From Escherichia phage finno: a stretch of DNA of 64,000 nucleotides. The translations under genes and the position numbers were made by a program. A model generated the notes under the pieces. The model worked only from the letters and a program-made list of their open reading frames with translations, did no database searches and had not been told where the DNA came from. This document shows, one piece after another, positions 1 through 10,049 of the stretch. Every line of letters starts with the position of its first letter. The stretch's first letter is position 1. The DNA is taken from the sequence record MN850619.1; one strand, written 5' to 3'.

Positions 1-1377
1 AGCAGAAAACCCCGCAAATCGGGTAACTTTATCTTTATTTGTTGGTTTAGCTCTTGCACGATAGCCTTTCTCGGCAAGTTTCCTGATGAGGGATGTTGCG
101 TAGGATTTACCAGCAGCGCCTGGGTCTTGAGGGATAAAAATACCAGTTCGCTTACCGTCACTTTCAGCAGTCAAATTAATTTGTGTTTCGACTCCAGAGG
201 GTCTATCTCTAAATCTTACTACATCAATGATATAATAGCAACCGTCTTTTTTAGATTTACCCATCTTAACACCTGCTGTCCAGTCTGGATTAGGGTTAAT
301 TTCAGATGGTAAAGTTGCTGCTAAGTCCCATGCTCTAACATCAAATACATCCTCTGGGAGTGAATCAACAATTTCACACCATTGTCTTTGCCAGTAGTTT
401 GAACCTTCTGCACGAGCCTTCCAGTTACCGAAACGAAGTCTTGCAACGTTTACAGGGGTGTTGTTTTCCAACTTACCACGGTACTTAGGTTCTAAGAAGT
501 CAAGAATTGGGTTATCATCAATCGTACCAGAGATGAAGGTATATGTTTGAGGAATCTCAAGAGGGAACATTTCAAGAATCTTGTCTCTCTCCCAATCAGA
601 AACCATCACACCATCATTCATTACATACCAACGAATACGACCACACTTTTCAGGGTCTGGATAACCTTCTTCATCTAAGAATGGTTCTACCCAATCATAA
701 ATAAAGTGGTCTCTGTCTGGGTTCATGGAAATCTTCATGTATGAATCGCCTTCAGCACCAGAACGTAAACGGGTTTGTAGGTATGAAATCTGTGAAGCAG
801 AGAAGTGTGTACCTTCGTCAAAGTAAATAGCTGAGTATTCAATACCCTGATGACCTTCAGCGTGCTTTTCAAGTTCTAGATAGGTAAACTTGATAGTCGC
901 CCCAGAAGGGAATGTGATAGTCATTTTCTGCTCGTGAGGAATCCCACCAAACTTACCAAATAGTTTCTTTGCAGCAGGCCATAAACCACCTTGTAACTGT
1001 GTTGTGTTTCGACGGAAATACACAGCATTATAGTTAGGGTCTTCAATAAATCTTAAAGAGTCCATTAACAATGCAGCAGTCTTACCAGCACCAGCAGCAC
1101 CACCATAGAGAACCAAGTCAGCATTAGTGTTTAAAAAGACCTCTTGAGAACCCGGCTGAGGGGCTACATAGTTCTTATCAGTCATCAACTTAAAGATGAG
1201 GCGAACTTGGTCTGGTGTGTATCTTAATAAAGTCAGAATTTGAGTTGGAAGGAATTTAGAGGGGTCTTTACCGAATGATTTGATAATTTCTTTTACTTCA
1301 TCAGAAAGCCCCAACTCTCCAGCTAGGACTTTCCTAACATCTTCCACTCGCTTCTGCTTAACAGCATTTAAGTCCAT
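1..1377 (-). CDS. terL: Terminase large subunit (C-terminus runs off window start)
   Basis: Minus-strand ORF with ATG at 1375-1377 and GGAGG RBS upstream; translation MDLNAVKQKR...LVLYGGAAGAGKTAALL has a Walker A P-loop and typical terminase ATPase/nuclease layout; open to position 1. Confidence 0.8.
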   Translation of the reverse strand, partial: MDLNAVKQKRVEDVRKVLAGELGLSDEVKEIIKSFGKDPSKFLPTQILTLLRYTPDQVRLIFKLMTDKNYVAPQPGSQEVFLNTNADLVLYGGAAGAGKTAALLMDSLRFIEDPNYNAVYFRRNTTQLQGGLWPAAKKLFGKFGGIPHEQKMTITFPSGATIKFTYLELEKHAEGHQGIEYSAIYFDEGTHFSASQISYLQTRLRSGAEGDSYMKISMNPDRDHFIYDWVEPFLDEEGYPDPEKCGRIRWYVMNDGVMVSDWERDKILEMFPLEIPQTYTFISGTIDDNPILDFLEPKYRGKLENNTPVNVARLRFGNWKARAEGSNYWQRQWCEIVDSLPEDVFDVRAWDLAATLPSEINPNPDWTAGVKMGKSKKDGCYYIIDVVRFRDRPSGVETQINLTAESDGKRTGIFIPQDPGAAGKSYATSLIRKLAEKGYRARAKPTNKDKVTRFAGFSA

Positions 1378-1398
1378 TAAGCGCCTCCGCAAATAGAA

Positions 1399-1599
1399 TT
1401 ATTCAGAGTCTGTAGCAGTCTCTTCTTTCTTAACTTCGAACTTTGCATCAACAGCATCCAGAAGTGCATCCATAGATGCTTCTTTAATATCAATACCTGT
1501 TGCTACAGATAATCTATCTGCAATTGCCATGATAGTGTTCTGCATAAATTCTAGCTTTTTATTAGCTTCATAAAGTTCTTTATAAACGGTCTCGCTCAT
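1399..1599 (-). CDS. Hypothetical small protein immediately upstream of terminase
   Basis: 66 aa ORF, same strand, ends 22 nt before terL start; acidic C-terminus; no recognisable motif. Confidence 0.4.
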   Translation of the reverse strand: MSETVYKELYEANKKLEFMQNTIMAIADRLSVATGIDIKEASMDALLDAVDAKFEVKKEETATDSE

Positions 1600-1821
1600 T
1601 ATGTTTTCTCCAAATAATTAACCATGTTTCCCCTTAAAAAAGACGGCACAGAGACCGTCAAGGAGAAACCACAATGTACGTCAGAGACATACTGTATAAG
1701 TCTTCCTATAAAGTATAACTCTGTAAAAAAGCCCTGTCTAAAAATACTCTTCGGTAGCGAAAGGAAGAATACTTATAGCAGGGCATTATTATTATTTTAA
1801 TTGAGAGAGAGTAAAATAACT

Positions 1822-1897
1822 TGGAGAATCCGAAGGGACTTGAACCCTTATAAACCTGTTTTGCAGACAGGCACATATCCATTTCTGTCACGGATTC
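1822..1897 (-). tRNA. tRNA-Cys (anticodon GCA), CCA encoded
   Basis: Reverse-complement T-arm AAGGG-ACTTGAA-CCCTT, acceptor GAATCCG/CGGATTC, anticodon stem CCTGT/ACAGG with loop giving GCA. Confidence 0.8.
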
Positions 1898-1901
1898 AAA
1901 T

Positions 1902-1994
1902 TGGAGGAAGATACCAGACTTGAACTGGTACACCGATTTCTCAGCTACTGGCAGTTTAGCAAACTGCTCCCTTACCTTTTAGGGTTAATCTTCC
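1902..1994 (-). tRNA. tRNA-Ser (anticodon GCU), class II with long variable arm
   Basis: T-arm ACCAG-ACTTGAA-CTGGT, acceptor GGAAGAT/ATCTTCC, anticodon stem GCAGT/ACTGC, 21-nt variable region, 93 nt with CCA. Confidence 0.8.
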
Positions 1995-1995
1995 A

Positions 1996-2730
1996 TTATT
2001 TCTGCAATGCGTTCTTCATTTCTGGTGTTGCAATAGTGTCGATTACACCAGTTTTACAAGCATCATCAAACCAGTCTGGTAAGATACCTGCTAAGAACCC
2101 ATTGATATTCGTTTTAAGGTACTCTGCAATAAGGGCGGCTTCTTCTTCAATCATCTGCACAACTTCATCTGCATAAGCTGTAATCTTTGAGATACCTTCA
2201 TTAATCTTACTAACAGCCTGATTAGCTAAATCAGAAACAGTATCAAGACCCTTATCAATAGCGTCTTGTAAGTCACTTAACACACCGTTAACACTGTCTA
2301 GTGTGCTGTTAATCATGTCAATAGCTTTTTGACCATACTCTGTAGCAACACCCATAATACCACTGAATGGTGTACAACCAACTTGTTCTCCTGCTGCACC
2401 CATAACATTGGAGTATCCCTTTGCTACCTGCATACGTGATGAAAACTCATCAATAGACTTTTGACCATAGTCTGTTAGGGTCTTAGTAGTTGCTGTAGTG
2501 CTTGTCAGGCTTGTTGTAAAGCTGTTTAGAAGGACTGTTGTAAGTCCAGCAGCAACAAGCTTCTCCTTCATTGTAGGGTCTGTTACAGAGCTAATAGAGC
2601 TTACAAGTGATGTAGAGGCAGCTACGGTTCCACCGAGAACTGCTGCACCAGTAATAAGTGGGTTAGAAAACCCTTTACCGGTTTTTAAGAGATTAAAAAT
2701 CTCCTTACCTTGTTCTGTCATCTCTTTCAT
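1996..2730 (-). CDS. Hypothetical Ala/Thr/Ser/Gly-rich protein inside the tRNA cluster
   Basis: ORF track 1996..2793; start trimmed to internal Met (MKEMTEQ...) because the annotated N-terminus overlaps tRNA-Phe; low-complexity T/S/A-rich core. Confidence 0.5.
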   Translation of the reverse strand: MKEMTEQGKEIFNLLKTGKGFSNPLITGAAVLGGTVAASTSLVSSISSVTDPTMKEKLVAAGLTTVLLNSFTTSLTSTTATTKTLTDYGQKSIDEFSSRMQVAKGYSNVMGAAGEQVGCTPFSGIMGVATEYGQKAIDMINSTLDSVNGVLSDLQDAIDKGLDTVSDLANQAVSKINEGISKITAYADEVVQMIEEEAALIAEYLKTNINGFLAGILPDWFDDACKTGVIDTIATPEMKNALQK

Positions 2731-2748
2731 TAAGCACCTTTGAAATTG

Positions 2749-2823
2749 GTAGTCCAGTGGGATTTGAACCCTCTTCTCATGTTTTTCAGACACGCGCTTT
2801 AACCATATAAGCTACTTGGACTA
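2749..2823 (-). tRNA. tRNA-Phe (anticodon GAA), tentative
   Basis: T-loop ATTTGAA, acceptor TAGTCCA/TGGACTA, anticodon loop gives CUGAAAA. Confidence 0.65.
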
Positions 2824-2828
2824 TAAAT

Positions 2829-2905
2829 TGGGGTGACCTACGGGATTTGAACCCGTATAGACCATGTTCACAGCATGGGTCATTACCATTTATGATAAGG
2901 CCACA
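2829..2905 (-). tRNA. tRNA-His (anticodon GUG) with extra 5' G(-1)
   Basis: T-arm ACGGG-ATTTGAA-CCCGT, anticodon stem CCATG/CATGG, loop gives GUG; extra 5' nucleotide consistent with His G-1. Confidence 0.8.
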
Positions 2906-2935
2906 TTTAAGGACTCTCGTAAGAACCCTTAGAAG

Positions 2936-3011
2936 TGGCAGCGGCATAAGGATTTGAACCTTAATAGGACAGCTTCAGAGACTGCTGCATTGCCAGTTAT
3001 GCTATACCGCT
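2936..3011 (-). tRNA. tRNA-Gln (anticodon CUG), tentative
   Basis: T-arm TAAGG-ATTTGAA-CCTTA, D-stem 4/4 pairs, U8/A14/G18G19/A21 present, anticodon loop CUCUGAA. Confidence 0.7.
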
Positions 3012-3016
3012 AAAAT

Positions 3017-3095
3017 TGGTGCTCCATATCGGATTCGAACCGATACATAACACAGATTTTAAGTCTGGCCTCTCTGCCAATTGGAGTAATGGAGC
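3017..3095 (-). tRNA. tRNA, anticodon region reads UAA (Leu-type) but class I length; assignment tentative
   Basis: T-arm ATCGG-ATTCGAA-CCGAT, perfect acceptor GCTCCAT/ATGGAGC, CCA encoded; anticodon loop CUUAAAA; short variable loop. Confidence 0.6.
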
Positions 3096-3097
3096 AT

Positions 3098-3173
3098 TGG
3101 CGGGGGATGTTGGAATTGAACCAACTTCTTCGATTTCAAAGACCGAGGTTTTAACCTTGTAAACTAATCCCCT
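3098..3173 (-). tRNA. tRNA-Gln (anticodon UUG)
   Basis: T-arm GTTGG-AATTGAA-CCAAC, D-stem 4/4, anticodon stem 5/5, loop CUUUGAA. Confidence 0.75.
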
Positions 3174-3181
3174 TTAAATCT

Positions 3182-3739
3182 TTACTTTCTCAGTGGATGA
3201 ATAAAGAATGCCAACATAACTCTTTCCCTTGAGAATGCTCTTTCTTCTGGGACAACACTTTTAAGTTTCCATCCAACATAAATTCTCCAGTAAAACTGTT
3301 TACCAAAGACTTTAATTGATGGGATAAAAGCGAATAATCCCCAAGCATTACTGTTCCACATTAGGAGATAACCAGTCTGATTATCTTCAGGGTTAGAACT
3401 TACGTTGATATTACCTTTCCACTTAGTAACATCTTTTACATCTCTTCCTAATACATGGTAAGAGAAGTTATAAGCTTTGTTTCTCCAGAGCCATCCAACT
3501 CTCTGCATGTAGACACCCAGCTTACCAATCTTTCTAATCTTAGCCCATCTTTTAACGTGGCCTTCATCACCATCAATCTGGTTGTCATAGGTCTCCATCC
3601 ATCTGAATCCAAAAGGTAAGTGTCCTTTCTTTTCACTGTAGAATGGAACTACGAAAGGTGCTAAGATGACTGCTAGGGTTGCTGCAAATGGTTCTAGTAA
3701 AGCTAGGAAAATCCATGAAGCATACTTCAAATATCTCAT
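3182..3739 (-). CDS. Hypothetical membrane protein embedded in tRNA cluster
   Basis: 185 aa ORF with hydrophobic N-terminus (WIFLALLEPFAATLAVILAPFVVPF), flanked by tRNAs without overlap. Confidence 0.5.
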   Translation of the reverse strand: MRYLKYASWIFLALLEPFAATLAVILAPFVVPFYSEKKGHLPFGFRWMETYDNQIDGDEGHVKRWAKIRKIGKLGVYMQRVGWLWRNKAYNFSYHVLGRDVKDVTKWKGNINVSSNPEDNQTGYLLMWNSNAWGLFAFIPSIKVFGKQFYWRIYVGWKLKSVVPEERAFSRERVMLAFFIHPLRK

Positions 3740-3758
3740 CTAAATAGCCTCTTAAAAT

Positions 3759-3836
3759 TGGTGTTCCAAGACGGATTCGAACCGTCACTAATACAAGGTT
3801 TGAGCTTGCATCCTCTGCCAATTGGGATACTGGAAC
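3759..3836 (-). tRNA. tRNA, anticodon region reads CAA (Leu-type) but class I length; tentative
   Basis: T-arm GACGG-ATTCGAA-CCGTC, acceptor GTTCCAA/CTGGAAC, anticodon loop CUCAAAC, 6-nt variable loop. Confidence 0.6.
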
Positions 3837-3837
3837 A

Positions 3838-3912
3838 TGGTACTCACTAAAGGACTTGAACCTTTTTCTTCATCTTGTAAGGGTGATGTTTTACCATATA
3901 AACTAAGCGAGT
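3838..3912 (-). tRNA. tRNA-Val (anticodon UAC), tentative
   Basis: T-arm AAAGG-ACTTGAA-CCTTT, acceptor pairs 7/7 with one G-U, anticodon loop CUUACAA. Confidence 0.65.
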
Positions 3913-4007
3913 GTGAAAGAGGTCTGAAGTTGTGCCGCTAACTCAACTCCGTGGAATTTGTTACGGTCTTCAGTTGACACCAGCGGTCTTTCACTTGACC
4001 TCTGAAT

Positions 4008-4084
4008 TGGTGCTGCTCACAGGACTCGAACCTGCATTTCCATCCTTACAAGGGATGTGTAATAGCCAATTATACGAAAGCAGC
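4008..4084 (-). tRNA. tRNA-Thr (anticodon UGU)
   Basis: T-arm ACAGG-ACTCGAA-CCTGC, perfect anticodon stem CATCC/GGATG, loop CUUGUAA. Confidence 0.8.
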
Positions 4085-4090
4085 ATTGTT

Positions 4091-4165
4091 TGGAGCATCC
4101 AGAGGGAATCGAACCCTCAACCTCAGTTTGGAAGACTGTAATTTTCCCGTTTAAACTATGGATGC
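4091..4165 (-). tRNA. tRNA-Gly (anticodon UCC)
   Basis: T-arm GAGGG-AATCGAA-CCCTC, perfect acceptor GCATCCA/TGGATGC, loop CUUCCAA. Confidence 0.75.
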
Positions 4166-4171
4166 GCTAAT

Positions 4172-4247
4172 TGGTGGAGTCACTGAGAATTGAACTCAGT
4201 TCCCAAGTTTGCAAAACTCGAATTTTAACCATATAAACTATGACCCC
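4172..4247 (-). tRNA. tRNA-Ala (anticodon UGC)
   Basis: T-arm CTGAG-AATTGAA-CTCAG, anticodon stem CAAGT/ACTCG, loop UUUGCAA. Confidence 0.8.
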
Positions 4248-4253
4248 AATGTC

Positions 4254-4329
4254 TGGTACAGGTGGAGGGAATTGAACCCGTCGTCTTACTGATTAAGAGT
4301 CAGCCGCATAACCATTTTGCTACACCTGC
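4254..4329 (-). tRNA. tRNA-Lys (anticodon CUU), tentative
   Basis: T-loop AATTGAA, acceptor ACAGGTG/CACCTGC, anticodon loop CUCUUAA; close paralog of the tRNA at 5569-5644. Confidence 0.65.
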
Positions 4330-4336
4330 ATTAATT

Positions 4337-4414
4337 TGGTAGGAGACAAGGGATTCGAACCCTCAAACATCTCGTTCTAAGCGAGATAGGTTTACCAATT
4401 ACCGTCAACCTCCC
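4337..4414 (-). tRNA. tRNA, anticodon region reads UAG (Leu-type) but class I length; tentative
   Basis: T-arm AAGGG-ATTCGAA-CCCTC, perfect anticodon stem TCTCG/CGAGA with loop CUUAGAA, acceptor pairs with three G-U. Confidence 0.6.
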
Positions 4415-4668
4415 ATTAAGTCTTTTTAGAGAACTTCTAAGAACCTAAGCAACAAGGTTCCACAACAAGCTGTAATAACCTTAGAAGCCCTCTAAAAAGA
4501 CCTAAAAAGGTCTTTGCATAGTCTTGTTTAATCCGGTGACTAGAACCTTTGGAGAGCTTGATATTATCTCTTCTCCGTGACACCTACTAGGTGCTTTATC
4601 AGTGTGTACGACAATACACGAGGGATACCAAAGCAACATCCGAATGAAGCTTGGCTTTAAATCTTATT

Positions 4669-4759
4669 AGGCGGTAAGTAAAGGAGTCGAACCCTCACCG
4701 TATCTCTACAGTGGCAACAGTTTTCAAGACTGTTTGGCTGCCATTAGCCGCTACCTACC
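4669..4759 (-). tRNA. tRNA-Ser (anticodon UGA), class II
   Basis: T-loop AGTCGAA, perfect anticodon stem ACAGT/ACTGT, loop CUUGAAA, about 20-nt variable arm; CCA apparently not encoded. Confidence 0.75.
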
Positions 4760-4772
4760 CCTAATAAGACTT

Positions 4773-4855
4773 TGGCATGGGACGGAGGAGTTGAACCCCT
4801 TTGAAACGGTTTTGGAGGCCGTTGCTCATGCCTTAGAGTCTTAACATCGTCCCAC
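4773..4855 (-). tRNA. tRNA (83 nt with CCA; anticodon not resolved)
   Basis: T-arm GGAGG-AGTTGAA-CCCCT and complementary acceptor ATGGGAC/GTCCCAC; the internal fold could not be resolved by eye. Confidence 0.5.
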
Positions 4856-4997
4856 ACTATAATTCGAAGCTCACCGTATTATCTCAACACTGTAAAGCCC
4901 CTTCTCAGATTATTTACATGTTCTGGAAAACATGAGATACAGACCACCTCCCTACAGGAAGACCCGCTTAGGTCGTCTAAGTAATCTGCTAACTAAT

Positions 4998-5074
4998 TGG
5001 CACACCCTACAGGATTCGAACCTGTAACTAACGATTTAGAAGACCGTTGCTCTATCCAATTGAACTAAGGGTGC
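4998..5074 (-). tRNA. tRNA-Arg (anticodon UCU)
   Basis: T-arm ACAGG-ATTCGAA-CCTGT, anticodon stem ACGAT/ACCGT, loop CUUCUAA. Confidence 0.8.
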
Positions 5075-5410
5075 ATTAATCTTTAAAAACTCTCTTAGAA
5101 AGCCCTTAAAGATGCCCACCTTATTAATCATACCGTGGGCGAGTACGCCAAATTCTTTGATGAGGGATTGGAAGACCTCACTGGTGTTTAGCCTATCAAG
5201 CTACTGCCAGAAAAACATTGTCGTTTGCATTTATTTTAAATTTGCAAAATAGACGCTACGCAACGAAAACTATTCAGAATATGTACAACAAATTTCCCCA
5301 CATTGTGTTACGTCTAACGCTCATGTATTGGTGTTTGAATTATACATATTATGAAGTATTTTAGTTACTATAAAGTAGTCACATCTCAATGTCAACAACT
5401 TTATTGAAAT

Positions 5411-5486
5411 TGGTACTGGTAGGTGGAATCGAACCACCGATGTTCCCTTATCAGGGGAGTGTTATAACCTTCTTAACTATACCAGC
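5411..5486 (-). tRNA. tRNA-Ile (anticodon GAU), tentative
   Basis: T-arm GGTGG-AATCGAA-CCACC, acceptor ACTGGTA/TACCAGC, loop CUGAUAA. Confidence 0.7.
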
Positions 5487-5487
5487 T

Positions 5488-5564
5488 TGGAGGTTCAGAT
5501 GGGAATCGAACCCACATTCATAGGGCTTATGAGACCCTTGCATTACCTTATCTGCGACTGAACC
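5488..5564 (-). tRNA. tRNA with CAU anticodon (Met, initiator or lysidine-Ile not distinguished)
   Basis: T-arm ATGGG-AATCGAA-CCCAC, perfect acceptor GGTTCAG/CTGAACC, loop CUCAUAA. Confidence 0.7.
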
Positions 5565-5568
5565 ATTT

Positions 5569-5644
5569 TGGTAGAAGTGGAGGGATTCGAACCCATCGCC
5601 TGTCAGATTAAAAGTCTGCCGCATCACCATTCTGCTACACTTCC
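5569..5644 (-). tRNA. tRNA-Lys (anticodon UUU), tentative
   Basis: Paralog of the tRNA at 4254-4329; loop CUUUUAA; acceptor AGAAGTG/CACTTCC. Confidence 0.7.
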
Positions 5645-5844
5645 ATTAAATTATCTTTGTAGATAAGCTACCCAGACTTGCTTAAGGTCTGTAGCGATGT
5701 GCCTTTTTGGGTTTAAATCTAGAATTTACCCTTTCACCCTTTGTGGTCGCATACTCACAGGTAAGCTTAATAACTTATCTACAAAGATAATTACCAGACC
5801 GTTGTTTATCATCTTAAGTGCTACCATTACACCAACTCGACCTC

Positions 5845-5920
5845 TGCCGAGTGAAGGAATCGAACCTTCCCATTTTCTTTACCGAGAAATAGATTGTTTA
5901 AGTTTTGCTGTAAACGGTCT
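5845..5920 (-). tRNA. tRNA-like element (canonical T-arm only); possibly degenerate
   Basis: T-arm GAAGG-AATCGAA-CCTTC is present but no complementary 5' acceptor or clean anticodon arm was found. Confidence 0.3.
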
Positions 5921-6075
5921 TCTGTAAATTTGTTGAGCCAGACCAAGTTTTAAATTTTTTCAAAATTGAATTGGCTTGAAAATATCATACGTACTTGCTG
6001 TATTTGGTCTTCTGCTCCTTTAAAGAATACTCGTAAGAACTCTTTAAGGGAGGGGCTAAATAGCCCTCTCAAAAT

Positions 6076-6154
6076 TGGCGGTTACGAAGGGATTTGAACC
6101 CTCATCATCTCCCGTGACAGGGGAGTATTTTAACCAAAATTAAACTACATAACC
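6076..6154 (-). tRNA. tRNA-Asp (anticodon GUC)
   Basis: T-arm AAGGG-ATTTGAA-CCCTC, perfect anticodon stem CTCCC/GGGAG, loop CUGUCAC. Confidence 0.8.
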
Positions 6155-6159
6155 TTTAT

Positions 6160-6247
6160 TGGTGTGCCGTGTAGGAGTCGAACCTACCGAGTCTCAATGA
6201 CAAGGGATTTACAGTCCCCACCGCTACCATCTACGGGATAACGACAC
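6160..6247 (-). tRNA. tRNA-Tyr (anticodon GUA), class II
   Basis: T-arm GTAGG-AGTCGAA-CCTAC, 15-nt variable arm, anticodon stem AGGGA/TCCCC, loop CUGUAAA. Confidence 0.75.
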
Positions 6248-6316
6248 ATTTAATTTCTATTCAGGCTAAGGACTTGCACCTTACAAATCGGTGAGCAATC
6301 GCTTCTCTCCTAAATT

Positions 6317-6393
6317 TGGCGGTTAGTCAGGGATTCGAACCCTGTGCCATTCGCTTAACAGGCGACCGCACATACCTTATGTGCTTCCTAACC
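6317..6393 (-). tRNA. tRNA-Asn (anticodon GUU)
   Basis: T-arm CAGGG-ATTCGAA-CCCTG, loop CUGUUAA. Confidence 0.75.
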
Positions 6394-6476
6394 ATGTTTA
6401 GTATTACCAGACCGTATCTTTCAATTTTTCCGCTAAAAATTTAATAAATATTGCTGTAAACGGTCTTCTGTAAATT

Positions 6477-6553
6477 TGGAGGCGGGTGCAGGAGTCGAAC
6501 CTGCCGATACCATGCTAATGAGACATGTGAGACGCCCTTTCTCTATACCCGCA
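6477..6553 (-). tRNA. Second tRNA with CAU anticodon (Met/fMet/Ile2 not distinguished)
   Basis: T-arm GCAGG-AGTCGAA-CCTGC, anticodon stem CATGC/ACATG, loop CUCAUUA; apparent U1-C72 mismatch. Confidence 0.6.
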
Positions 6554-6644
6554 ATTCTTAATGACCAGACCAAATCTCTTCTTTGTCCGATTTACCTTCA
6601 GATGAATAAGATTAAGTTTGCTGTAATTGGTCTTCTGTCAAAAC

Positions 6645-6722
6645 TGGCGTTCCAGAAGGGATTTGAACCCTCAGATATCCACTTTGAAAGAGTGGTGACT
6701 TTACCATTTTGTCTACTGGAAC
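6645..6722 (-). tRNA. tRNA-Glu (anticodon UUC)
   Basis: T-arm AAGGG-ATTTGAA-CCCTC, perfect acceptor GTTCCAG/CTGGAAC, perfect anticodon stem CCACT/AGTGG, loop CUUUCAA. Confidence 0.8.
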
Positions 6723-6729
6723 ATTAATT

Positions 6730-6806
6730 TGGTCTCTGTTGGAGGACTTGAACCTCCGGCCTTACCGCCCCAAACGGAACGCTCTACCAAGCTGAGCTAA
6801 ACAGAG
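6730..6806 (-). tRNA. tRNA-Pro (anticodon UGG)
   Basis: T-arm GGAGG-ACTTGAA-CCTCC, perfect acceptor and D-stem, loop UUUGGGG with G37. Confidence 0.8.
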
Positions 6807-6971
6807 ATAAACTTTTCAAACTCTATGTAACCACTTTAACATTATTTTTTAGTGATTGTCAAGAACTTTTTTAAAATATTTTTCAGTATCTTAGAAAAGC
6901 TCTCGTTTCGTTTCTATGTAGAACATATTAAAGGGTATCAAACACATTGTCAATACCCTTTTTAAAACTTT

Positions 6972-8387
6972 TTACCAGATATAACGGTCAATCATTACTG
7001 CTTTGAGCATTACGCTGATTGGGTCAAACTTCTCACCACCAAGTAGAGCTTTTAAAGTGGCTGGAGAGAAACCAGATACCATTGCTACACCGTTATCCTT
7101 AACAGATACTTCGCAAGTGCCATTACGGTTTGCTAAGTACCAGAATACCAATTGTGGCATCTCATATCCAGCTTTTTTGTACTTGCTCTGAATTGCTTCA
7201 AAGTTTGTACGACCGTTAGCTCCATCAACCTGATTGAACTCCATATCAGAGAAGATGATAAGCTTACTTGGCATATCTTTCTGAGTCAAGTTGTTTCTTT
7301 TACCTGTCTCAAGAATGCGGTCAAAAGCTGCTTGTAAGTTAGTTGAGCCATATTCAACGTGTCGCATCACCTGACGATGACGGTTTCGTAAATCACCACT
7401 CAGTTCGATGAAGTGAGGGTTTGTTGAATAAACCATTAACTCGTTCTTAAAGCAACCTGTATTGCGTTCTGCTACATACAATGCAAGTGATACACCAATA
7501 TCAAGAGCAGTAATTGAACCAAAATTCACCCAAGACATTGAGCTTGAAACATCAGTCATACACAAGATGTTTTCACCTTCTGCCATCCAGTTTGGTAGTG
7601 CTTTCCACTGCTCATTGGCAACATCTGCATTACCATGCTTGATAGACTTAATCACATCGTATGGGTAAACAGCACCAGCGTTAATCTTAGTCTCACCTTT
7701 TGATAAGGACTCAATGTAAGCTTTGTAGCGTTCTCCATCTTTACGGTTAAACAGTTTTTGGTAACGTGCAGCAGCAAGTGAAGGAATCTTACTGTAGTCA
7801 ATCTTACCAAACTCATTAGCAGAGATTTTTTGCTCAACTGTATCAGATAGTGCAGACAACAGTGTGCGGTACTCTTTCTCACTCAAGTTGGCAAACTTGC
7901 AGAAACGTTTTACAAACTGTTTGTGACGTGGTTTGACTCGTGGTAACCACTTAGCTGCCAAACCTGCTGTTGCAGGGTCTAGTAATGCTGCTTCTAAATG
8001 TTTGAAGGCATCTGTCTCGAAGCGAGTGCCTACGAAGATTTTGAAGTCATCAAAACGACCAAGTTCTGCAATCTTATCCATAATGCGAAGAACCTGTGTA
8101 GGCTCTAAAACTTTATCTTCAATTGCCTGAAGCAAAACAGTTCTGAAGGCTTTACGCTCACCCATACCCTCTCGTACATCTCGCATATGCAGTAAAATAC
8201 GAACTGCAACATCAACATCCTCACGCAAAGCTTTGTAGAACAGGTCTGGTAAGATTTCTACGTTGCTACGGCTTGAACCAGCAGCTTTGTAAAAGTCCAC
8301 AAGAGCAGACATTGATGAAGTATGGTTTACAGCACCATTTTCAGTTCGACCTGCATGAAGGTGCGCATGTTTAAATAATTCGCTCAT
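6972..8387 (-). CDS. vWA-domain protein (MIDAS-like DVSSSMS); possibly DUF2828/TROVE (Ro60)-like
   Basis: 471 aa ORF; N-terminal TENGA...SALVDFYKAAGS stretch and a central DxSxS metal-site motif followed by a vWA-like region; family assignment from motif recollection only. Confidence 0.5.
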   Translation of the reverse strand: MSELFKHAHLHAGRTENGAVNHTSSMSALVDFYKAAGSSRSNVEILPDLFYKALREDVDVAVRILLHMRDVREGMGERKAFRTVLLQAIEDKVLEPTQVLRIMDKIAELGRFDDFKIFVGTRFETDAFKHLEAALLDPATAGLAAKWLPRVKPRHKQFVKRFCKFANLSEKEYRTLLSALSDTVEQKISANEFGKIDYSKIPSLAAARYQKLFNRKDGERYKAYIESLSKGETKINAGAVYPYDVIKSIKHGNADVANEQWKALPNWMAEGENILCMTDVSSSMSWVNFGSITALDIGVSLALYVAERNTGCFKNELMVYSTNPHFIELSGDLRNRHRQVMRHVEYGSTNLQAAFDRILETGKRNNLTQKDMPSKLIIFSDMEFNQVDGANGRTNFEAIQSKYKKAGYEMPQLVFWYLANRNGTCEVSVKDNGVAMVSGFSPATLKALLGGEKFDPISVMLKAVMIDRYIW

Positions 8388-8468
8388 ATTTTACTCTCTT
8401 CTCTCATTTGTTGTTTGATGTGACAGACTTTAGAGCAACTTTGTAGAGTCTGTCAACACCTTTTAAAA

Positions 8469-8840
8469 TTATTTTTTGAGAGTCGCTACAGCAGAGAACG
8501 TTGGTTTGTTATCTGTCTGTGGCTGACCACCATTATCAGGGGTTTTCTTAGTGTCTGCTGCAAGTGCTTTCATCTCACCTGCTGAGTGAGTAAAGATGGT
8601 TTTACCGACCTCAATCATACTCTTGATGGTTACGTCGTCTGTGTTTAACCCGAACTCTGCAAGCTTAGCAGCGTCCCTTGTAACAATCGCCTCAAACAGT
8701 TTTGCAGCAAACTCAGCAGAATTATCAATGGTCAGTTGAGCTTTTACAAGTGAGCTTTTGTTACGAGAGCCTTTTGGTCTTCCAGATGGGTTTCCAGATT
8801 GGCCTTTTTTAAACTGGCCTTTGTTTGTTCTGTTTTTCAT
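8469..8840 (-). CDS. Hypothetical protein with basic GNPSGRPKGSRNK motif (putative DNA-binding)
   Basis: 123 aa ORF; N-terminal KGQSGNPSGRPKG motif; last gene before the strand switch. Confidence 0.45.
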   Translation of the reverse strand: MKNRTNKGQFKKGQSGNPSGRPKGSRNKSSLVKAQLTIDNSAEFAAKLFEAIVTRDAAKLAEFGLNTDDVTIKSMIEVGKTIFTHSAGEMKALAADTKKTPDNGGQPQTDNKPTFSAVATLKK

Positions 8841-8954
8841 TGGTATGCCTCTTATAAGACCTCTTAAAAGGCTTTTAAGATAAAAGATAGATATCCAGAA
8901 AGATATCTGTTTAAATAGCCTTTTTAGAGGAACCTTTTAAGTTATCTTCTAAGT

Positions 8955-9050
8955 ATTTATAAGCCTACACCTTGTCAAGTACTTTGTCAACAACTTTTTA
9001 ACTTGCAATAGTTCTTGACTTGTTGTATGGATTACTGTACCATCTTACTT
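8955..9050. promoter_or_regulatory. Divergent promoter region with tandem TTGTCAA motif (CACCTTGTCAAGTACTTTGTCAAC)
   Basis: On the minus strand this reads TTGACA-N17-TAGGCT with a second TTGACA; on the plus strand TTGACT-N17-TACCAT sits upstream of the 9089 start; same 25-nt motif recurs at 56170-56195. Confidence 0.45.
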
Positions 9051-9088
9051 AAAGCTGTAGGTCTGCCTTGTTCTACAAAGGAGACTTA

Positions 9089-9250
9089 ATGAGAAAATCA
9101 AATAAACCGAAGAAAGGTAAGAATACCAATCACTGTAAGGAATCAAAAAGGGTAGAATTAATCTACTATTCATCCTCTGAAATTGGTCTGTACCTGTTCT
9201 TTCAAAATTACAGAAGACAAGAGGATTATCTATGTGTAGTTCCCAATTAG
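9089..9250 (+). CDS. Hypothetical small basic protein
   Basis: ORF track 9068..9250; start moved to the ATG preceded by a GGAGA RBS. Confidence 0.4.
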   Translation: MRKSNKPKKGKNTNHCKESKRVELIYYSSSEIGLYLFFQNYRRQEDYLCVVPN

Positions 9251-9465
9251 AAATCGCAGATATTATAGATTTATATCAAACTGCAAAGAGTCATGGCTAT
9301 ATAACCTCAATTGGAAAGAATAGTCACTATGATGCTTTGACTGGAATGTATTTCAGGGCAATGGCTCAATCTAGTGAACAACACTTAGTGGTTTCTTCCA
9401 GTGAGTTTACTTCGTTTCTCTATTGCAGCAAAATTATAAATCGCAGGAGAACTGAAAAATGTTAA
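9232..9465 (+). CDS. Hypothetical protein
   Basis: 77 aa ORF in the plus-strand operon, overlapping neighbours by a few nt. Confidence 0.4.
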   Translation: MCSSQLEIADIIDLYQTAKSHGYITSIGKNSHYDALTGMYFRAMAQSSEQHLVVSSSEFTSFLYCSKIINRRRTEKC

Positions 9466-10049
9466 CAGTAAGTTTTAATTACAATAGTGATGGCTCTGTA
9501 TCAATTAACTCACCATATGCAAATGACCTACTTAAAGAGCTAGTCAATCAGTGTGAGAGGGGTCTTCACTATGTTCAAAATTCTTTTAAACAGAAGACTA
9601 TTGCTAATAACTTGATGCGTGTAACAGTGACGGCATCAAATCCAAATTATGACTTTGATAGTGAAAGTCCGTACTCATTAGTTGCGCTTGGAGAGAGCAG
9701 CCAATTCAAACTTGTTTGCCACGACTCAGAAACATTCCTTAAGGTATTTTCCAACCTTATCCATAATAATAAGTACAGCTACGTTGATGGTAGTGTAAAC
9801 TTCTATCCAGCAAACTATACATGTTTGTTGACTGATAATATGAGAAAAAGTAAGCAAGAGCCTACAGAAATCTCATTTGATGTGAACTCTAGTCCAGACG
9901 CAGAAACAAGTAAGAACTTTGATATGAGTTATGCGTTGTCACTCAGTAAGAAATCCGAGTTCATTGATTATGTCAATGGATTTGGTTTTAAGTTTGATGA
10001 GAGTATGAATCTTAAAAAACTTAAGAACCTACTTAAGACCAAAGCTTAA
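9459..10049 (+). CDS. Hypothetical protein
   Basis: 196 aa ORF with start overlapping the upstream stop. Confidence 0.5.
   Translation: MLTVSFNYNSDGSVSINSPYANDLLKELVNQCERGLHYVQNSFKQKTIANNLMRVTVTASNPNYDFDSESPYSLVALGESSQFKLVCHDSETFLKVFSNLIHNNKYSYVDGSVNFYPANYTCLLTDNMRKSKQEPTEISFDVNSSPDAETSKNFDMSYALSLSKKSEFIDYVNGFGFKFDESMNLKKLKNLLKTKA

What the first reader, a model, noticed from the sequence alone, without database searches (positions are those of the whole stretch)
6972..8387. vWA-domain protein, possibly Ro60/TROVE-like, directly adjacent to the tRNA array
The 471-aa product has a MIDAS-like DVSSSMS motif and an N-terminal stretch reminiscent of TROVE-domain proteins. Ro60 orthologs bind Y RNAs that contain tRNA-like modules and are usually encoded next to them; here the gene abuts a tRNA cluster that includes several tRNA-like elements that do not fold canonically (4773-4855, 5845-5920, and unassigned stretches at 4415-4668 and 3913-4007). 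The Ro60 assignment is weak and rests on motif recollection.
Basis: inference. Interest (0 to 1): 0.5.

Follow-up and report, generated by a model that had tools for sequence, protein, structure and literature searches.

The report
Phage Ro60-like protein with partner RNAs
The gene encodes a distant, ring-shaped relative of the Ro60 RNA-binding protein in a Felix-O1-type phage, and just downstream of it, scattered among the phage's tRNA genes, lie four small structured RNAs of an apparently undescribed family that accompanies this protein family in many unrelated phages, much as Y RNAs accompany Ro60.

Summary
A 471-aa ORF lies at 6972-8387, on the minus strand. Its DVSSSMS motif belongs to a complete, family-invariant MIDAS. 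It sits 165 nt upstream of a co-directional array of 25 tRNAs in a Felixounavirus.

The new part is the RNA. Four elements in the tRNA array (6640-6562, 6473-6404, 6017-5935, 5927-5791, minus strand) share a covarying 7-bp closing helix, the motif UUNCAGCAA and a 3' G. The fourth also carries a permuted tRNA-like module (T arm, hairpin, D arm), as in bacterial YrlA Y RNAs.

The same RNA family sits beside DUF2828 genes in 59 of 78 related loci, almost all on the gene strand and often within 300 nt, including loci with no tRNAs. It is absent beside the two genuine TROVE Ro60 genes examined, whose Y RNAs use a GNCGAA motif, and it has no Rfam match.

Best reading: a Ro60-like/Y-RNA-like ribonucleoprotein. 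Binding was not tested.

The parts
6972..8387 (-). Gene for a 471-aa Ro60-fold protein: an N-terminal alpha-helical (HEAT-like) ring domain (Pfam DUF2828) plus a C-terminal vWA domain with a complete MIDAS (Pfam DUF7788). PHROG 850. Orthologue of Bas63 gp130.
8427..8456 (-). Sigma-70-like promoter (TTGACA, 18 nt, TAAAGT) about 40 nt upstream of the gene's ATG.
   Evidence: This is a consensus match only.
6833..6953 (-). Two sigma-70-like promoters (TTGACA-17-TAATAT at 6953-6925; TTGACA-18-TAAAGT at 6862-6833) between the gene's stop and the first tRNA. They would drive the array of tRNAs and small RNAs independently of the gene.
   Evidence: Consensus matches only. The same layout (gene, TTGACA promoter, small RNAs, tRNAs) occurs in Klebsiella phage FBKp34.
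6562..6640 (-). Short Y-RNA-like element A, between tRNA-Glu and tRNA-Met. Outer 4-bp stem UGAC/GUCA; AGA bulge; P1 AGACCAA/UUGGUCU; motif UUACAGCAA; 3' G.
   Evidence: R2 model hit 6564-6636 at 33.4 bits. Descriptor hit.
6404..6473 (-). Short Y-RNA-like element B, between tRNA-Met and tRNA-Asn. Outer stem UUAC/GUAA; P1 AGACCGU/ACGGUCU; UUACAGCAA; 3' G.
   Evidence: R2 hit 6406-6469 at 33.1 bits. Compensatory UUGC/GCAA outer stem in Suspvirus.
5935..6017 (-). Short Y-RNA-like element C. Outer stem GAGC/GCUC; P1 AGACCAA/UUGGUCU; AUACAGCAA; 3' G.
   Evidence: R2 hit 5937-6013 at 31.3 bits. Descriptor hit.
5791..5927 (-). Long Y-RNA-like element D. P1 AGACCGU/ACGGUCU + UUACAGCAA, then a permuted tRNA-like module: CUUA/UAAG helix, long variable hairpin, T arm GAAGG-UUCGAUU-CCUUC, acceptor-like hairpin ACUCG...CGAGU, D arm GUG-UAAUGGUA-GCAC. 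This is the module order of YrlA.
   Evidence: z -2.7; T arm matches tRNA model positions 47-63. R1 model, built without window sequences, hits 5808-5893 at 25.3 bits, E 0.0013. Compensatory change in the hairpin in Suspvirus and Mooglevirus.
1822..6806 (-). Co-directional array of 25 tRNA genes in which the four elements are embedded. tRNA 5' and 3' ends lie 5-12 nt from elements A and B.

Best explanation
The ORF encodes a divergent Ro60-fold RNA-binding protein of the DUF2828/DUF7788 family. It is built from a helical-repeat ring capped by a MIDAS-containing vWA domain. I propose that it forms a ribonucleoprotein with four phage-encoded small RNAs made from the adjacent tRNA operon.

Suggested by promoter-like matches only: the RNAs are transcribed from two strong promoter-like sites just downstream of the gene.

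Inferred: because the RNAs lie 5-12 nt from flanking tRNAs, ordinary tRNA processing (RNase P at the next tRNA's 5' end, 3' trimming of the previous tRNA) would release them.

Inferred by analogy with Ro60 and Y RNA: the protein recognises the family-defining module, which is the 7-bp closing helix, the adjacent single-stranded UUNCAGCAA and the 3' G. The variable interior acts as the effector or tether module. In element D that interior is a permuted tRNA-like domain lacking an anticodon loop. It could recruit host tRNA- or RNA-handling enzymes such as PNPase or tRNA modification and processing enzymes, or gate access of other RNAs to the protein's ring.

From the literature: the biological output is protection of the infection from host defence. 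The 99%-identical Bas63 gp130 is needed for normal plaques on a ppl-expressing host and can protect T7.
For: Protein:
- AF2 model pLDDT 90.3, pTM 0.89.
- The ten best Foldseek PDB hits are all Ro60/TROVE, full length, E 3e-8 to 2e-6.
- Invariant MIDAS.
- hhalign to Ro60: E 1.6e-5 over aa 219-447.
- 99% identity to Bas63 gp130, reported as Ro60-like and as a ppl counter (PMC11482910).

RNA:
- Four copies in the window against 0.24 expected by chance, and exactly four descriptor hits, all on the gene strand.
- All four fold into the same bulged stem.
- The elements are conserved, with compensatory changes, in Suspvirus and Mooglevirus.
- A covariance model (R1) built without window sequences, searched over the window plus 78 related loci: 65 of 65 non-tRNA hits are on the gene strand.
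- Descriptor scan: 115 hits on the gene strand, 5 on the opposite strand, 4.4 in shuffles. 59 of 78 loci are positive. 55 of 115 hits lie within 300 nt of the gene, against about 4% expected if hits were spread evenly.
- P1 helix 97% paired, with double-sided changes at all 7 pairs; slid controls are about 40% paired.
- Elements occur in loci with no tRNAs at all.
- Elements occur in named phages of Campylobacter, Bacillus, Mycobacterium, Klebsiella and Vibrio.
- The tRNA-like model cross-detects unannotated YrlA-type RNAs beside genuine Ro60 genes. The P1/UUNCAGCAA model finds nothing there. This fits a protein-specific recognition module.
Against: - No binding, expression or processing data exist for these RNAs. 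The RNP is an inference from co-occurrence and analogy.
- In the preprint, gp130 alone, from a plasmid or inserted into T7, restores T7 plaquing on ppl. At least that phenotype therefore does not need the phage RNAs, unless host RNAs substitute.
- 19 of 78 loci gave no strict descriptor hit.
- P100 and phiM7 gave no R2 core hit at E<=0.1. R1 gave a weak 18-bit short-form hit in P100 and tRNA-like module hits in phiM7.
- The N-terminal domain shows no significant sequence match to TROVE.
- Alignment A6 was fitted to the model, which inflates the pairing counts somewhat.
- R2 E-values for the window copies are modest (0.008-0.02 in a 0.78-Mb search), and the calibration is rough.
Confidence: 0.62

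Rival explanations
1. The protein is a stand-alone anti-defence protein that acts on the ppl system or its products by protein-protein or protein-nucleic-acid contact through its ring and MIDAS. The neighbouring small RNAs have an unrelated job in the tRNA operon, such as processing punctuation, spacers or stability elements.
For: gp130 alone rescues T7 and Bas63 on ppl hosts. In this window the elements lie between tRNAs and behind their own promoters.
Against: The same RNA motif sits 9-70 nt from DUF2828 genes in many loci with no tRNA within 8 kb (L011, L014, L017, L023, L024, L056, L060, L065). It is always on the gene strand. It is absent from the tRNA-rich loci of genuine Ro60 phages and from the rest of the 64-kb window. 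A pure tRNA-processing role does not predict linkage to the gene.
Confidence: 0.2
2. The elements are cis-regulatory sites such as autoregulatory operators, leaders or terminators of the DUF2828 mRNA, not free small RNAs. The protein would bind its own transcript to control expression.
For: In many distant loci one element lies 9-60 nt upstream of the start codon or 17-50 nt downstream of the stop. In phi-pp2 it abuts the start codon.
Against: In the window the nearest copy is more than 330 nt downstream of the stop, beyond two promoter-like sites and two tRNAs. Copies are multiple (up to 4-5 per locus). Many carry a full tRNA-like domain with conserved T- and D-loop residues. That is typical of stable trans-acting YrlA-type RNAs and unnecessary for an operator.
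Confidence: 0.1
3. The ORF is a structural or virion vWA protein, or a generic vWA adhesion protein, and its position next to the tRNA array is chance.
For: Some records call homologues 'vWFA protein' or 'putative structural protein'. The gene lies near lysis and tail-related genes on the opposite strand.
Confidence: 0.03

Closest known systems
Ro60 (TROVE2/Rsr) with Y RNAs, especially bacterial and phage Rsr with YrlA/YrlB (Chen et al. 2014, PMC4201824) and Thermus phage phiLo Ro60 with Yrl1/Yrl2 (PMC12135203)
   Same: Same protein architecture: a helical-repeat ring plus a MIDAS vWA domain. Partner RNAs are encoded next to the gene on the same strand. Those RNAs have a closing stem formed by their 5' and 3' ends and come in short and long forms. 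The long form has a permuted tRNA-like domain in the order V, T arm, acceptor-like hairpin, D arm. Genuine phage Ro60 genes also sit inside tRNA arrays.
   Different: There is no Pfam TROVE or vWA_Ro60 match; the window protein hits DUF2828 and DUF7788 instead. Sequence identity to Ro60 is 11-16%. The conserved RNA module is a 7-bp helix + UUNCAGCAA + G, not GGUCCGA/GNCGAA. The core model finds nothing beside the two genuine Ro60 genes examined. Binding and PNPase recruitment are untested.
Bas63 gp130 (PhageMaP preprint, PMC11482910)
   Same: The same gene: 464 of 471 residues identical, with identical synteny directly upstream of tRNA-Pro. The preprint noted structural similarity to Ro60, the position upstream of the tRNAs, and anti-ppl activity.
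   Different: The preprint guessed that 'some tRNA genes are possibly Y RNAs'. Here the candidate partners are not annotated tRNAs. They are four unannotated elements in the tRNA spacers, and they define a family shared with distant phages.
'Ro-like RNA binding protein' annotation of actinobacteriophages and PHROG 850 'RNA-binding protein'
   Same: Cluster L mycobacteriophage proteins such as Rumpelstiltskin gp54 are homologues of the window protein (33% identity, full length) and have the same Pfam pair. An element lies just downstream of gp54.
   Different: The same label is also used for genuine TROVE Ro60 of cluster C mycobacteriophages and Streptomyces phages. The annotation therefore merges two distinct families.
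Stable non-tRNA RNAs inside phage tRNA clusters (T4 species 1 and 2 RNAs, rnaC/rnaD). This item rests on my own knowledge and was not tested here.
   Same: Small stable RNAs co-transcribed and processed with phage tRNAs.
   Different: No sequence or structure comparison was made. No Ro60-like protein is known to me in T4.

Membership tests
Ro60 / TROVE protein family | Significant match to Pfam TROVE (PF05731) and vWA_Ro60 (PF25045) | tested here: not met
   Pfam scan at E<=1 returns only DUF7788 and DUF2828. Genuine phage Ro60 proteins (Cali gp224, Phredrick gp105) hit both TROVE and vWA_Ro60.
Ro60 / TROVE protein family | Fold: ring of helical repeats closed by a vWA domain | tested here: met
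Ro60 / TROVE protein family | MIDAS motif DxSxS...T...D in the vWA domain | tested here: met
   D279, S281, S283, T349 and D381 are invariant in 84 homologues.
Ro60 / TROVE protein family | Detectable sequence homology to Ro60 by profile comparison | tested here: inconclusive
   hhalign gives probability 79%, E 1.6e-5, but only for aa 219-447 (last helices plus vWA). The N-terminal ring domain was not aligned, and the Ro60 profile had only 3 sequences. A profile search against PDB sequences found no Ro60.
Ro60 / TROVE protein family | Binds Y RNA and misfolded RNA | not testable with these tools
   Needs RIP/CLIP or EMSA.
DUF2828/DUF7788 family (PHROG 850) | Full-length match to the family profiles | tested here: met
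   PHROG 850 E 5e-184 over residues 1-471. PF25043 E 2e-43 and PF11443 E 2e-29. 2563 homologues, and all 120 listed carry PF11443, with PF25043 in all but one truncated entry. 709 phage records.
Y RNA, YrlA type | Encoded within a few kb of the Ro60(-like) gene on the same strand | tested here: met
   Window elements lie 330-1180 nt downstream on the same strand. Across 78 loci, 115 hits on the gene strand against 5 on the opposite strand, with 55 of 115 within 300 nt.
Y RNA, YrlA type | Stem formed by the 5' and 3' ends, enclosing the rest of the RNA | tested here: met
   P1 is 97% paired, and all 7 pairs covary.
Y RNA, YrlA type | Permuted tRNA-like domain: V region, T arm, acceptor-like hairpin, D arm | tested here: met
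   Element D and long forms in other loci: T arm 100%, hairpin 93.5% and D arm 95% paired. Model R1 also finds YrlA-type RNAs beside genuine Ro60. The layout matches the description. Elements A-C lack this domain, like YrlB.
Y RNA, YrlA type | Conserved Ro-binding motif GNCGAA(N)G / GGUCCGA near the 5' end | tested here: not met
   The window and family consensus is WUWCAGCAA after the P1 5' strand. Cali Y RNAs carry GGCCGAG and GGCCGAAGG. R2 finds 0 hits beside Ro60.
Y RNA, YrlA type | Match to a curated Rfam Y-RNA model | tested here: not met
   No Y_RNA or related hit at E<=1 over 1-10000, nor at E<=10 over 5780-6045.
Y RNA, YrlA type | Physical association with the Ro60(-like) protein | not testable with these tools
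   Needs an experiment.

The most novel reading that the evidence does not exclude
DUF2828/DUF7788 proteins and the 'P1-UUNCAGCAA' RNAs form a second, previously unrecognised Ro60/Y-RNA-type ribonucleoprotein lineage. It is found in more phage records than genuine Ro60: 709 against 358 records in the phage collection, spanning phages of Enterobacteria, Vibrio, Campylobacter, Listeria, Staphylococcus, Bacillus and Mycobacterium. It has its own co-evolved protein-RNA recognition code. Its tRNA-like or other variable modules would be used to hijack or shield host RNA machinery as a counter-defence, with anti-ppl activity in Bas63 as the known case.
Probability: 0.45. Interest if true: 0.8.

Novelty: new variant of a known kind. 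Interest (0 to 1): 0.62.

Why it matters
What Ro60/Y-RNA particles do outside animals is still poorly understood, and phage versions have only begun to be studied, with phiLo in 2025.

If the reading here is right, a much larger Ro60-like family has its own set of Y-like RNAs. These can now be located by a simple signature. The family is present in genetically tractable E. coli and Salmonella phages (Felix O1, Bas63) and already has a measurable phenotype, resistance to the ppl defence.

That makes three things directly testable. One is how the protein recognises RNA, since the motif differs from that of Ro60. Another is what the tRNA-mimic module recruits. The third is whether the RNAs are needed for counter-defence.

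It also corrects annotation. 'Ro-like RNA binding protein' currently covers two distinct families. In Bas63, parts of these RNA elements are annotated as small opposite-strand ORFs, and they carry no annotation in the other Felix-O1-type records examined.

Tried and rejected
- Sequence searches of the protein and of its family profile against PDB found no Ro60. Only fold comparison did.
- NCBIfam and PADLOC gave nothing useful.
- Rfam gave no Y-RNA, YrlA or other family for the elements.
- A scan of IMG/VR with AGAAGACCNNNNNCAGCAA was too loose. About 120 mostly chance loci came back, and only the Felixounavirus contigs had multiple hits. These loci were reused as a harsh control: 27 chance-like hits in 2.06 Mb over both strands.
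- MAFFT could not align the RNAs structurally (A2 and A3). I therefore bootstrapped a covariance model from 8 hand-trimmed seeds (A4). I then rebuilt the model from real sequences aligned to it (A6 to R2).
- About 30 R1 hits were tandem-tRNA artefacts (the T arm of one tRNA plus the D arm of the next) and were removed by overlap with ARAGORN calls.
- The predicted 'anticodon-stem-like' helix is only 68% paired, and I do not rely on it.
- The neighbouring ORFs (DUF5681, DUF7338, DUF7217) gave no functional clue.
- The supplement of Chen et al. 2014, which holds the YrlA alignment, is not held in the library. I therefore compared with YrlA-type RNAs found beside genuine Ro60 genes of phages Cali and Phredrick.
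- The stretches 4415-4668 and 3913-4007 fold but matched neither RNA model. I found no link to the protein.
Full report
**1. Observation**

The ORF listing shows one long ORF at 6972..8387. It is on the minus strand, 471 aa, with an ATG start. The translation contains DVSSSMS at residues 279-285.

ARAGORN finds 25 tRNA genes, all on the minus strand, from 6806 down to 1822. The gene is therefore co-directional with the array, and its stop lies 165 nt upstream of the first tRNA (tRNA-Pro).

The window is a Felixounavirus. Positions 6000-9000 are 98% identical to Escherichia phage adrianh, and 251 phage records cover at least 80% of that stretch. In those records the gene is called 'vWFA protein', 'RNA-binding protein' or 'hypothetical protein'.

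**2. The protein**

Family assignment:
- Pfam gives DUF7788 (aa 275-455, E 2e-43) and DUF2828 (E 2e-29). It gives no TROVE, vWA_Ro60 or generic VWA hit at E<=1.
- PHROGs gives phrog_850 'RNA-binding protein' over the full length, E 5e-184.
- NCBIfam, PADLOC and sequence searches against PDB give nothing.

The family is large:
- 2563 homologues at E<=1e-3. All 120 listed carry PF11443, with PF25043 in all but one truncated entry.
- tblastn finds it in 709 of 50,697 phage records. Hosts include Escherichia, Salmonella, Vibrio, Aeromonas, Campylobacter, Listeria, Staphylococcus, Enterococcus, Bacillus and Mycobacterium. In cluster L mycobacteriophages it is annotated 'Ro-like RNA binding protein'.

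In an 84-sequence alignment (A1), D279, S281, S283, T349 and D381 are invariant, which is a complete MIDAS. Several N-terminal positions are also invariant: T15, N17, G18, R69, D70, R72, G74, G76, E77, R78.

Structure:
- AlphaFold2 on A1 gives a confident model, pLDDT 90.3 and pTM 0.89.
- Foldseek against PDB returns Ro60/TROVE structures as the ten best hits, all full length, with E 3e-8 to 2e-6 and TM 0.5-0.66. Isolated vWA domains follow at E>=4e-3.
- hhalign of A1 against a small Ro60 alignment gives probability 79% and E 1.6e-5, for aa 219-447 against Ro60 298-526. The Ro60 alignment held human Ro60, whose sequence I validated against PDB 9nen_A, plus two phage Ro60s.

Genuine phage Ro60 proteins (Cali gp224, Phredrick gp105) hit Pfam TROVE and vWA_Ro60. 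DUF2828 homologues from Mycobacterium, Campylobacter and Bacillus phages hit DUF2828 and DUF7788.

Conclusion: this is a Ro60-fold paralogue family, not a TROVE-family orthologue.

**3. What was already known**

The PhageMaP preprint (PMC11482910) reports four things about Bas63 gp130:
- It lies directly upstream of the tRNAs.
- Its deletion cripples Bas63 on a ppl-expressing host.
- gp130 alone, from a plasmid or from the T7 genome, restores T7 plaquing on ppl.

Bas63 is MZ501086. Its bas63_0130 has the same length and synteny as the window ORF and is 464/471 identical to it.

The preprint speculated that some annotated tRNAs might be Y RNAs. In the searchable library I found no paper that links DUF2828 to Ro60, or that describes partner RNAs for it. 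The library is partial, so this is not proof of absence.

**4. The RNAs in the window**

Reading the minus strand shows a module repeated in four tRNA spacers. CAGAAGACCNNTNACAGCAA occurs four times on the minus strand against 0.24 expected by chance.

Each copy folds the same way:
- an outer 4-bp stem (UGAC/GUCA, UUAC/GUAA, GAGC/GCUC, UUAC/GUAA, so it covaries between copies);
- an AGA bulge opposite a single G;
- a 7-8-bp helix AGACCNN/NNGGUCU;
- the single-stranded motif UUACAGCAA directly after the 5' strand.

Elements A-C (6640-6562, 6473-6404, 6017-5935) have AU-rich interiors.

Element D (5927-5791) contains a T arm that matches tRNA model positions 47-63. A closed hairpin and a D arm with the GG follow it. 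This T, acceptor-like hairpin, D order is the one described for YrlA.

The elements are conserved in Suspvirus CHB7 and Mooglevirus Sf14, with compensatory changes:
- outer stem of B: UUAC/GUAA becomes UUGC/GCAA;
- hairpin of D: ACUCG/CGAGU becomes ACACG/CGUGU.

Promoter-like TTGACA sites lie before the gene (8456-8427) and twice between the gene and the array (6953-6925, 6862-6833). Elements A and B lie 5-12 nt from the flanking tRNA ends, so tRNA processing would release them. That last step is an inference.

**5. The RNAs elsewhere**

I fetched 80 IMG/VR loci encoding relatives of the protein, most at 39-48% identity.

tRNA linkage:
- About half of the 75 non-Felixounavirus loci have tRNAs within 8 kb.
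- Every one of those tRNAs is on the gene strand.
- The gene also sits directly upstream of tRNA arrays in Suspvirus, Mooglevirus and Klebsiella phage FBKp34.

First sign of the RNA family: 'free' T-loops outside ARAGORN tRNAs lie next to the gene in many distant loci. They share one layout: 5' stem strand, UU(U/A)C(A/C)GCAA, spacer, T arm, hairpin, D arm, 3' stem strand, G.

Model R1 was built from 8 trimmed seeds, none from the window or its close relatives. Searching the window plus 78 related loci (1.14 Mb, both strands) gave 95 hits at E<=1, all on the gene strand:
- About 30 are tandem-tRNA artefacts.
- 65 do not overlap tRNAs.
- These include element D of the window (25.3 bits, E 0.0013).
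- Many are short forms only 38-75 nt long.

Among 47 unique full-span elements:
- The 7-bp P1 helix is almost always fully paired.
- It covaries strongly. Pair 6, for example, is GC 11, AU 21, CG 10, UA 4.
- Pair 1 (A-U), pair 2 (G-C) and pair 5 (U-A) are conserved.
- The motif W-U-W-C-A-G-C-A-A and the G after the 3' strand are conserved. G6 is present in 46/46 and the 3' G in 44/46.

The count of structure pairs on a cleaner alignment (A6, 50 sequences) gives the following percentages of cells forming standard pairs:

| Helix | Paired |
|---|---|
| P1 | 97% (all 7 pairs change on both sides) |
| T arm | 100% |
| Acceptor-like hairpin | 93.5% |
| D arm | 95% |
| 'Anticodon-stem-like' helix | 68% |
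| Slid controls | about 40% |

No shuffle out of 500 reached the observed values. One caveat is that A6 was fitted to the model.

An independent descriptor required 7/7 P1 pairs, NTNC[AC]GCA[AT], a 3' G and an insert of at most 150 nt:
- 115 hits on the gene strand, 5 on the opposite strand, 4.4 in shuffles.
- 59 of 78 loci are positive.
- 55 of 115 hits lie within 300 nt of the gene, against about 4% expected if uniform over +/-8 kb.

Many positive loci have no tRNA at all. There the element lies 9-70 nt from the gene, upstream or downstream.

Model R2 (core model, from A6) gave 54 of 54 hits on the gene strand:
- window elements A, B and C at 33.4, 33.1 and 31.3 bits;
- the Bas63 copies;
- elements next to the gene in Campylobacter phage CP30A, Bacillus phage MrDarsey and Mycobacterium phage Rumpelstiltskin.

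FBKp34 has a promoter, two short elements and one long element between the gene and its tRNAs. KVP40-like phi-pp2 has one element abutting the start codon.

In the whole 64-kb window the descriptor finds exactly the four elements, all on the minus strand.

**6. Relation to true Y RNAs**

Genuine Ro60 occurs in 358 phage records, mostly actinophages.

Beside Cali gp224 and Phredrick gp105, R1 finds unannotated YrlA-type RNAs at L214 3671-3779 and at L215 1948-2043 and 3142-3243. The tRNA-like module is therefore shared between the two systems.

R2, the P1/UUNCAGCAA core, finds nothing there even at E<=10. The Cali RNAs carry GGCCGAG and GGCCGAAGG, which is the GNCGAA motif of Chen et al..

Rfam has no match for the window elements.

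So each protein family has its own conserved RNA module. That is what a co-evolved binding site would look like.

**7. Mechanism**

Shown:
- The protein has the Ro60 fold.
- The RNA family is real and structured.
- The RNA family is tightly linked to the gene and shares its strand.
- The long form has the YrlA layout.

From the literature: the protein has anti-ppl activity.

Suggested by consensus matches only: separate promoters for the gene and for the array.

Inferred:
- The protein binds P1/UUNCAGCAA.
- The RNAs are released by tRNA processing.
- The variable or tRNA-like module tethers or gates host RNA enzymes.

The main counter-evidence is that gp130 alone rescues T7 on ppl. Either that phenotype is RNA-independent or host RNAs can substitute.

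**8. Verdict**

The protein's Ro60 likeness is already in annotation and in a preprint. The partner-RNA family and its distinct recognition motif appear to be new, so I class this as a new variant of a known kind.

Noticed in passing
window 5075-5366 (-), tag ORF 5228-5196: A tmRNA-like messenger module lies just upstream of tRNA-Arg(TCT). It reads AAUAAAU-GCAAACGACAAUGUUUUUCUGGCAGUAGCUUGAUAG, which encodes ANDNVFLAVA** (E. coli ssrA tag: ANDENYALAA). Standard ARAGORN misses it. At a relaxed threshold ARAGORN calls a tmRNA by borrowing the tRNA-Arg 3' half. Rfam tmRNA hits are weak (14-20 bits). In Suspvirus and Mooglevirus the 33 nt differ only by two synonymous changes (GAC>GAU, UGA>UAA), which suggests selection on the peptide.
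   Followed up: partly
window 4773-4857 (-): A non-canonical tRNA-Trp-like gene missed by ARAGORN. It has an 8-bp acceptor stem, G73-CCA, and the anticodon loop CUCCAAA as in E. coli tRNA-Trp but with a C31-A39 mismatch. Seven extra nucleotides lie before a 3-bp D stem. Trp is the only amino acid absent from the 25 called tRNAs. The anticodon stem shows fully compensatory changes in Suspvirus (ACGG/CCGU to UAAG/CUUA) and in a distant contig, L008 (GCUGG/CCAGU).
   Followed up: partly
window 5645-5792 (-): A perfect 17-nt inverted repeat (UUAUCUUUGUAGAUAAG ... CUUAUCUACAAAGAUAA), extended to about 24 bp, encloses about 100 nt between element D and tRNA-Lys. The predicted fold is -47.9 kcal/mol. 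Bas63 annotates small opposite-strand ORFs here. Function unknown.
   Followed up: no
window 4415-4669 (-) and 3913-4007 (-): Two further unassigned spacers fold into long hairpins (-74.6 and -30.7 kcal/mol). 3913-4007 has AGAGGUC...GACCUCU ends and an internal AGACCGU that recalls P1, but it lacks UUNCAGCAA. Neither RNA model hits them. In Suspvirus CHB7 a PD-(D/E)XK endonuclease ORF occupies the spacer equivalent to 4415-4669.
   Followed up: partly
L214 3640-3790 and 3810-3910 (Mycobacterium phage Cali); L215 1948-2043 and 3142-3243 (Streptomyces phage Phredrick): Unannotated YrlA/YrlB-type Y RNAs lie upstream of genuine TROVE Ro60 genes, and those genes are themselves embedded among phage tRNA genes. 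Placement within tRNA arrays is thus shared by both Ro60-type families in phages.
   Followed up: partly
GenBank GU169904.1 (Staphylococcus phage SA1), 145270-146682: A record labelled as a Staphylococcus phage carries a 97.9%-identical copy of this Felixounavirus gene. This suggests a chimeric or contaminated assembly.
   Followed up: no
window 6014-6075 (-): A GC-rich hairpin (GGGCUAUUUAGCCC) plus a second hairpin lie between tRNA-Asp and element C. There is no U-tract, so it is not an obvious intrinsic terminator.
   Followed up: no
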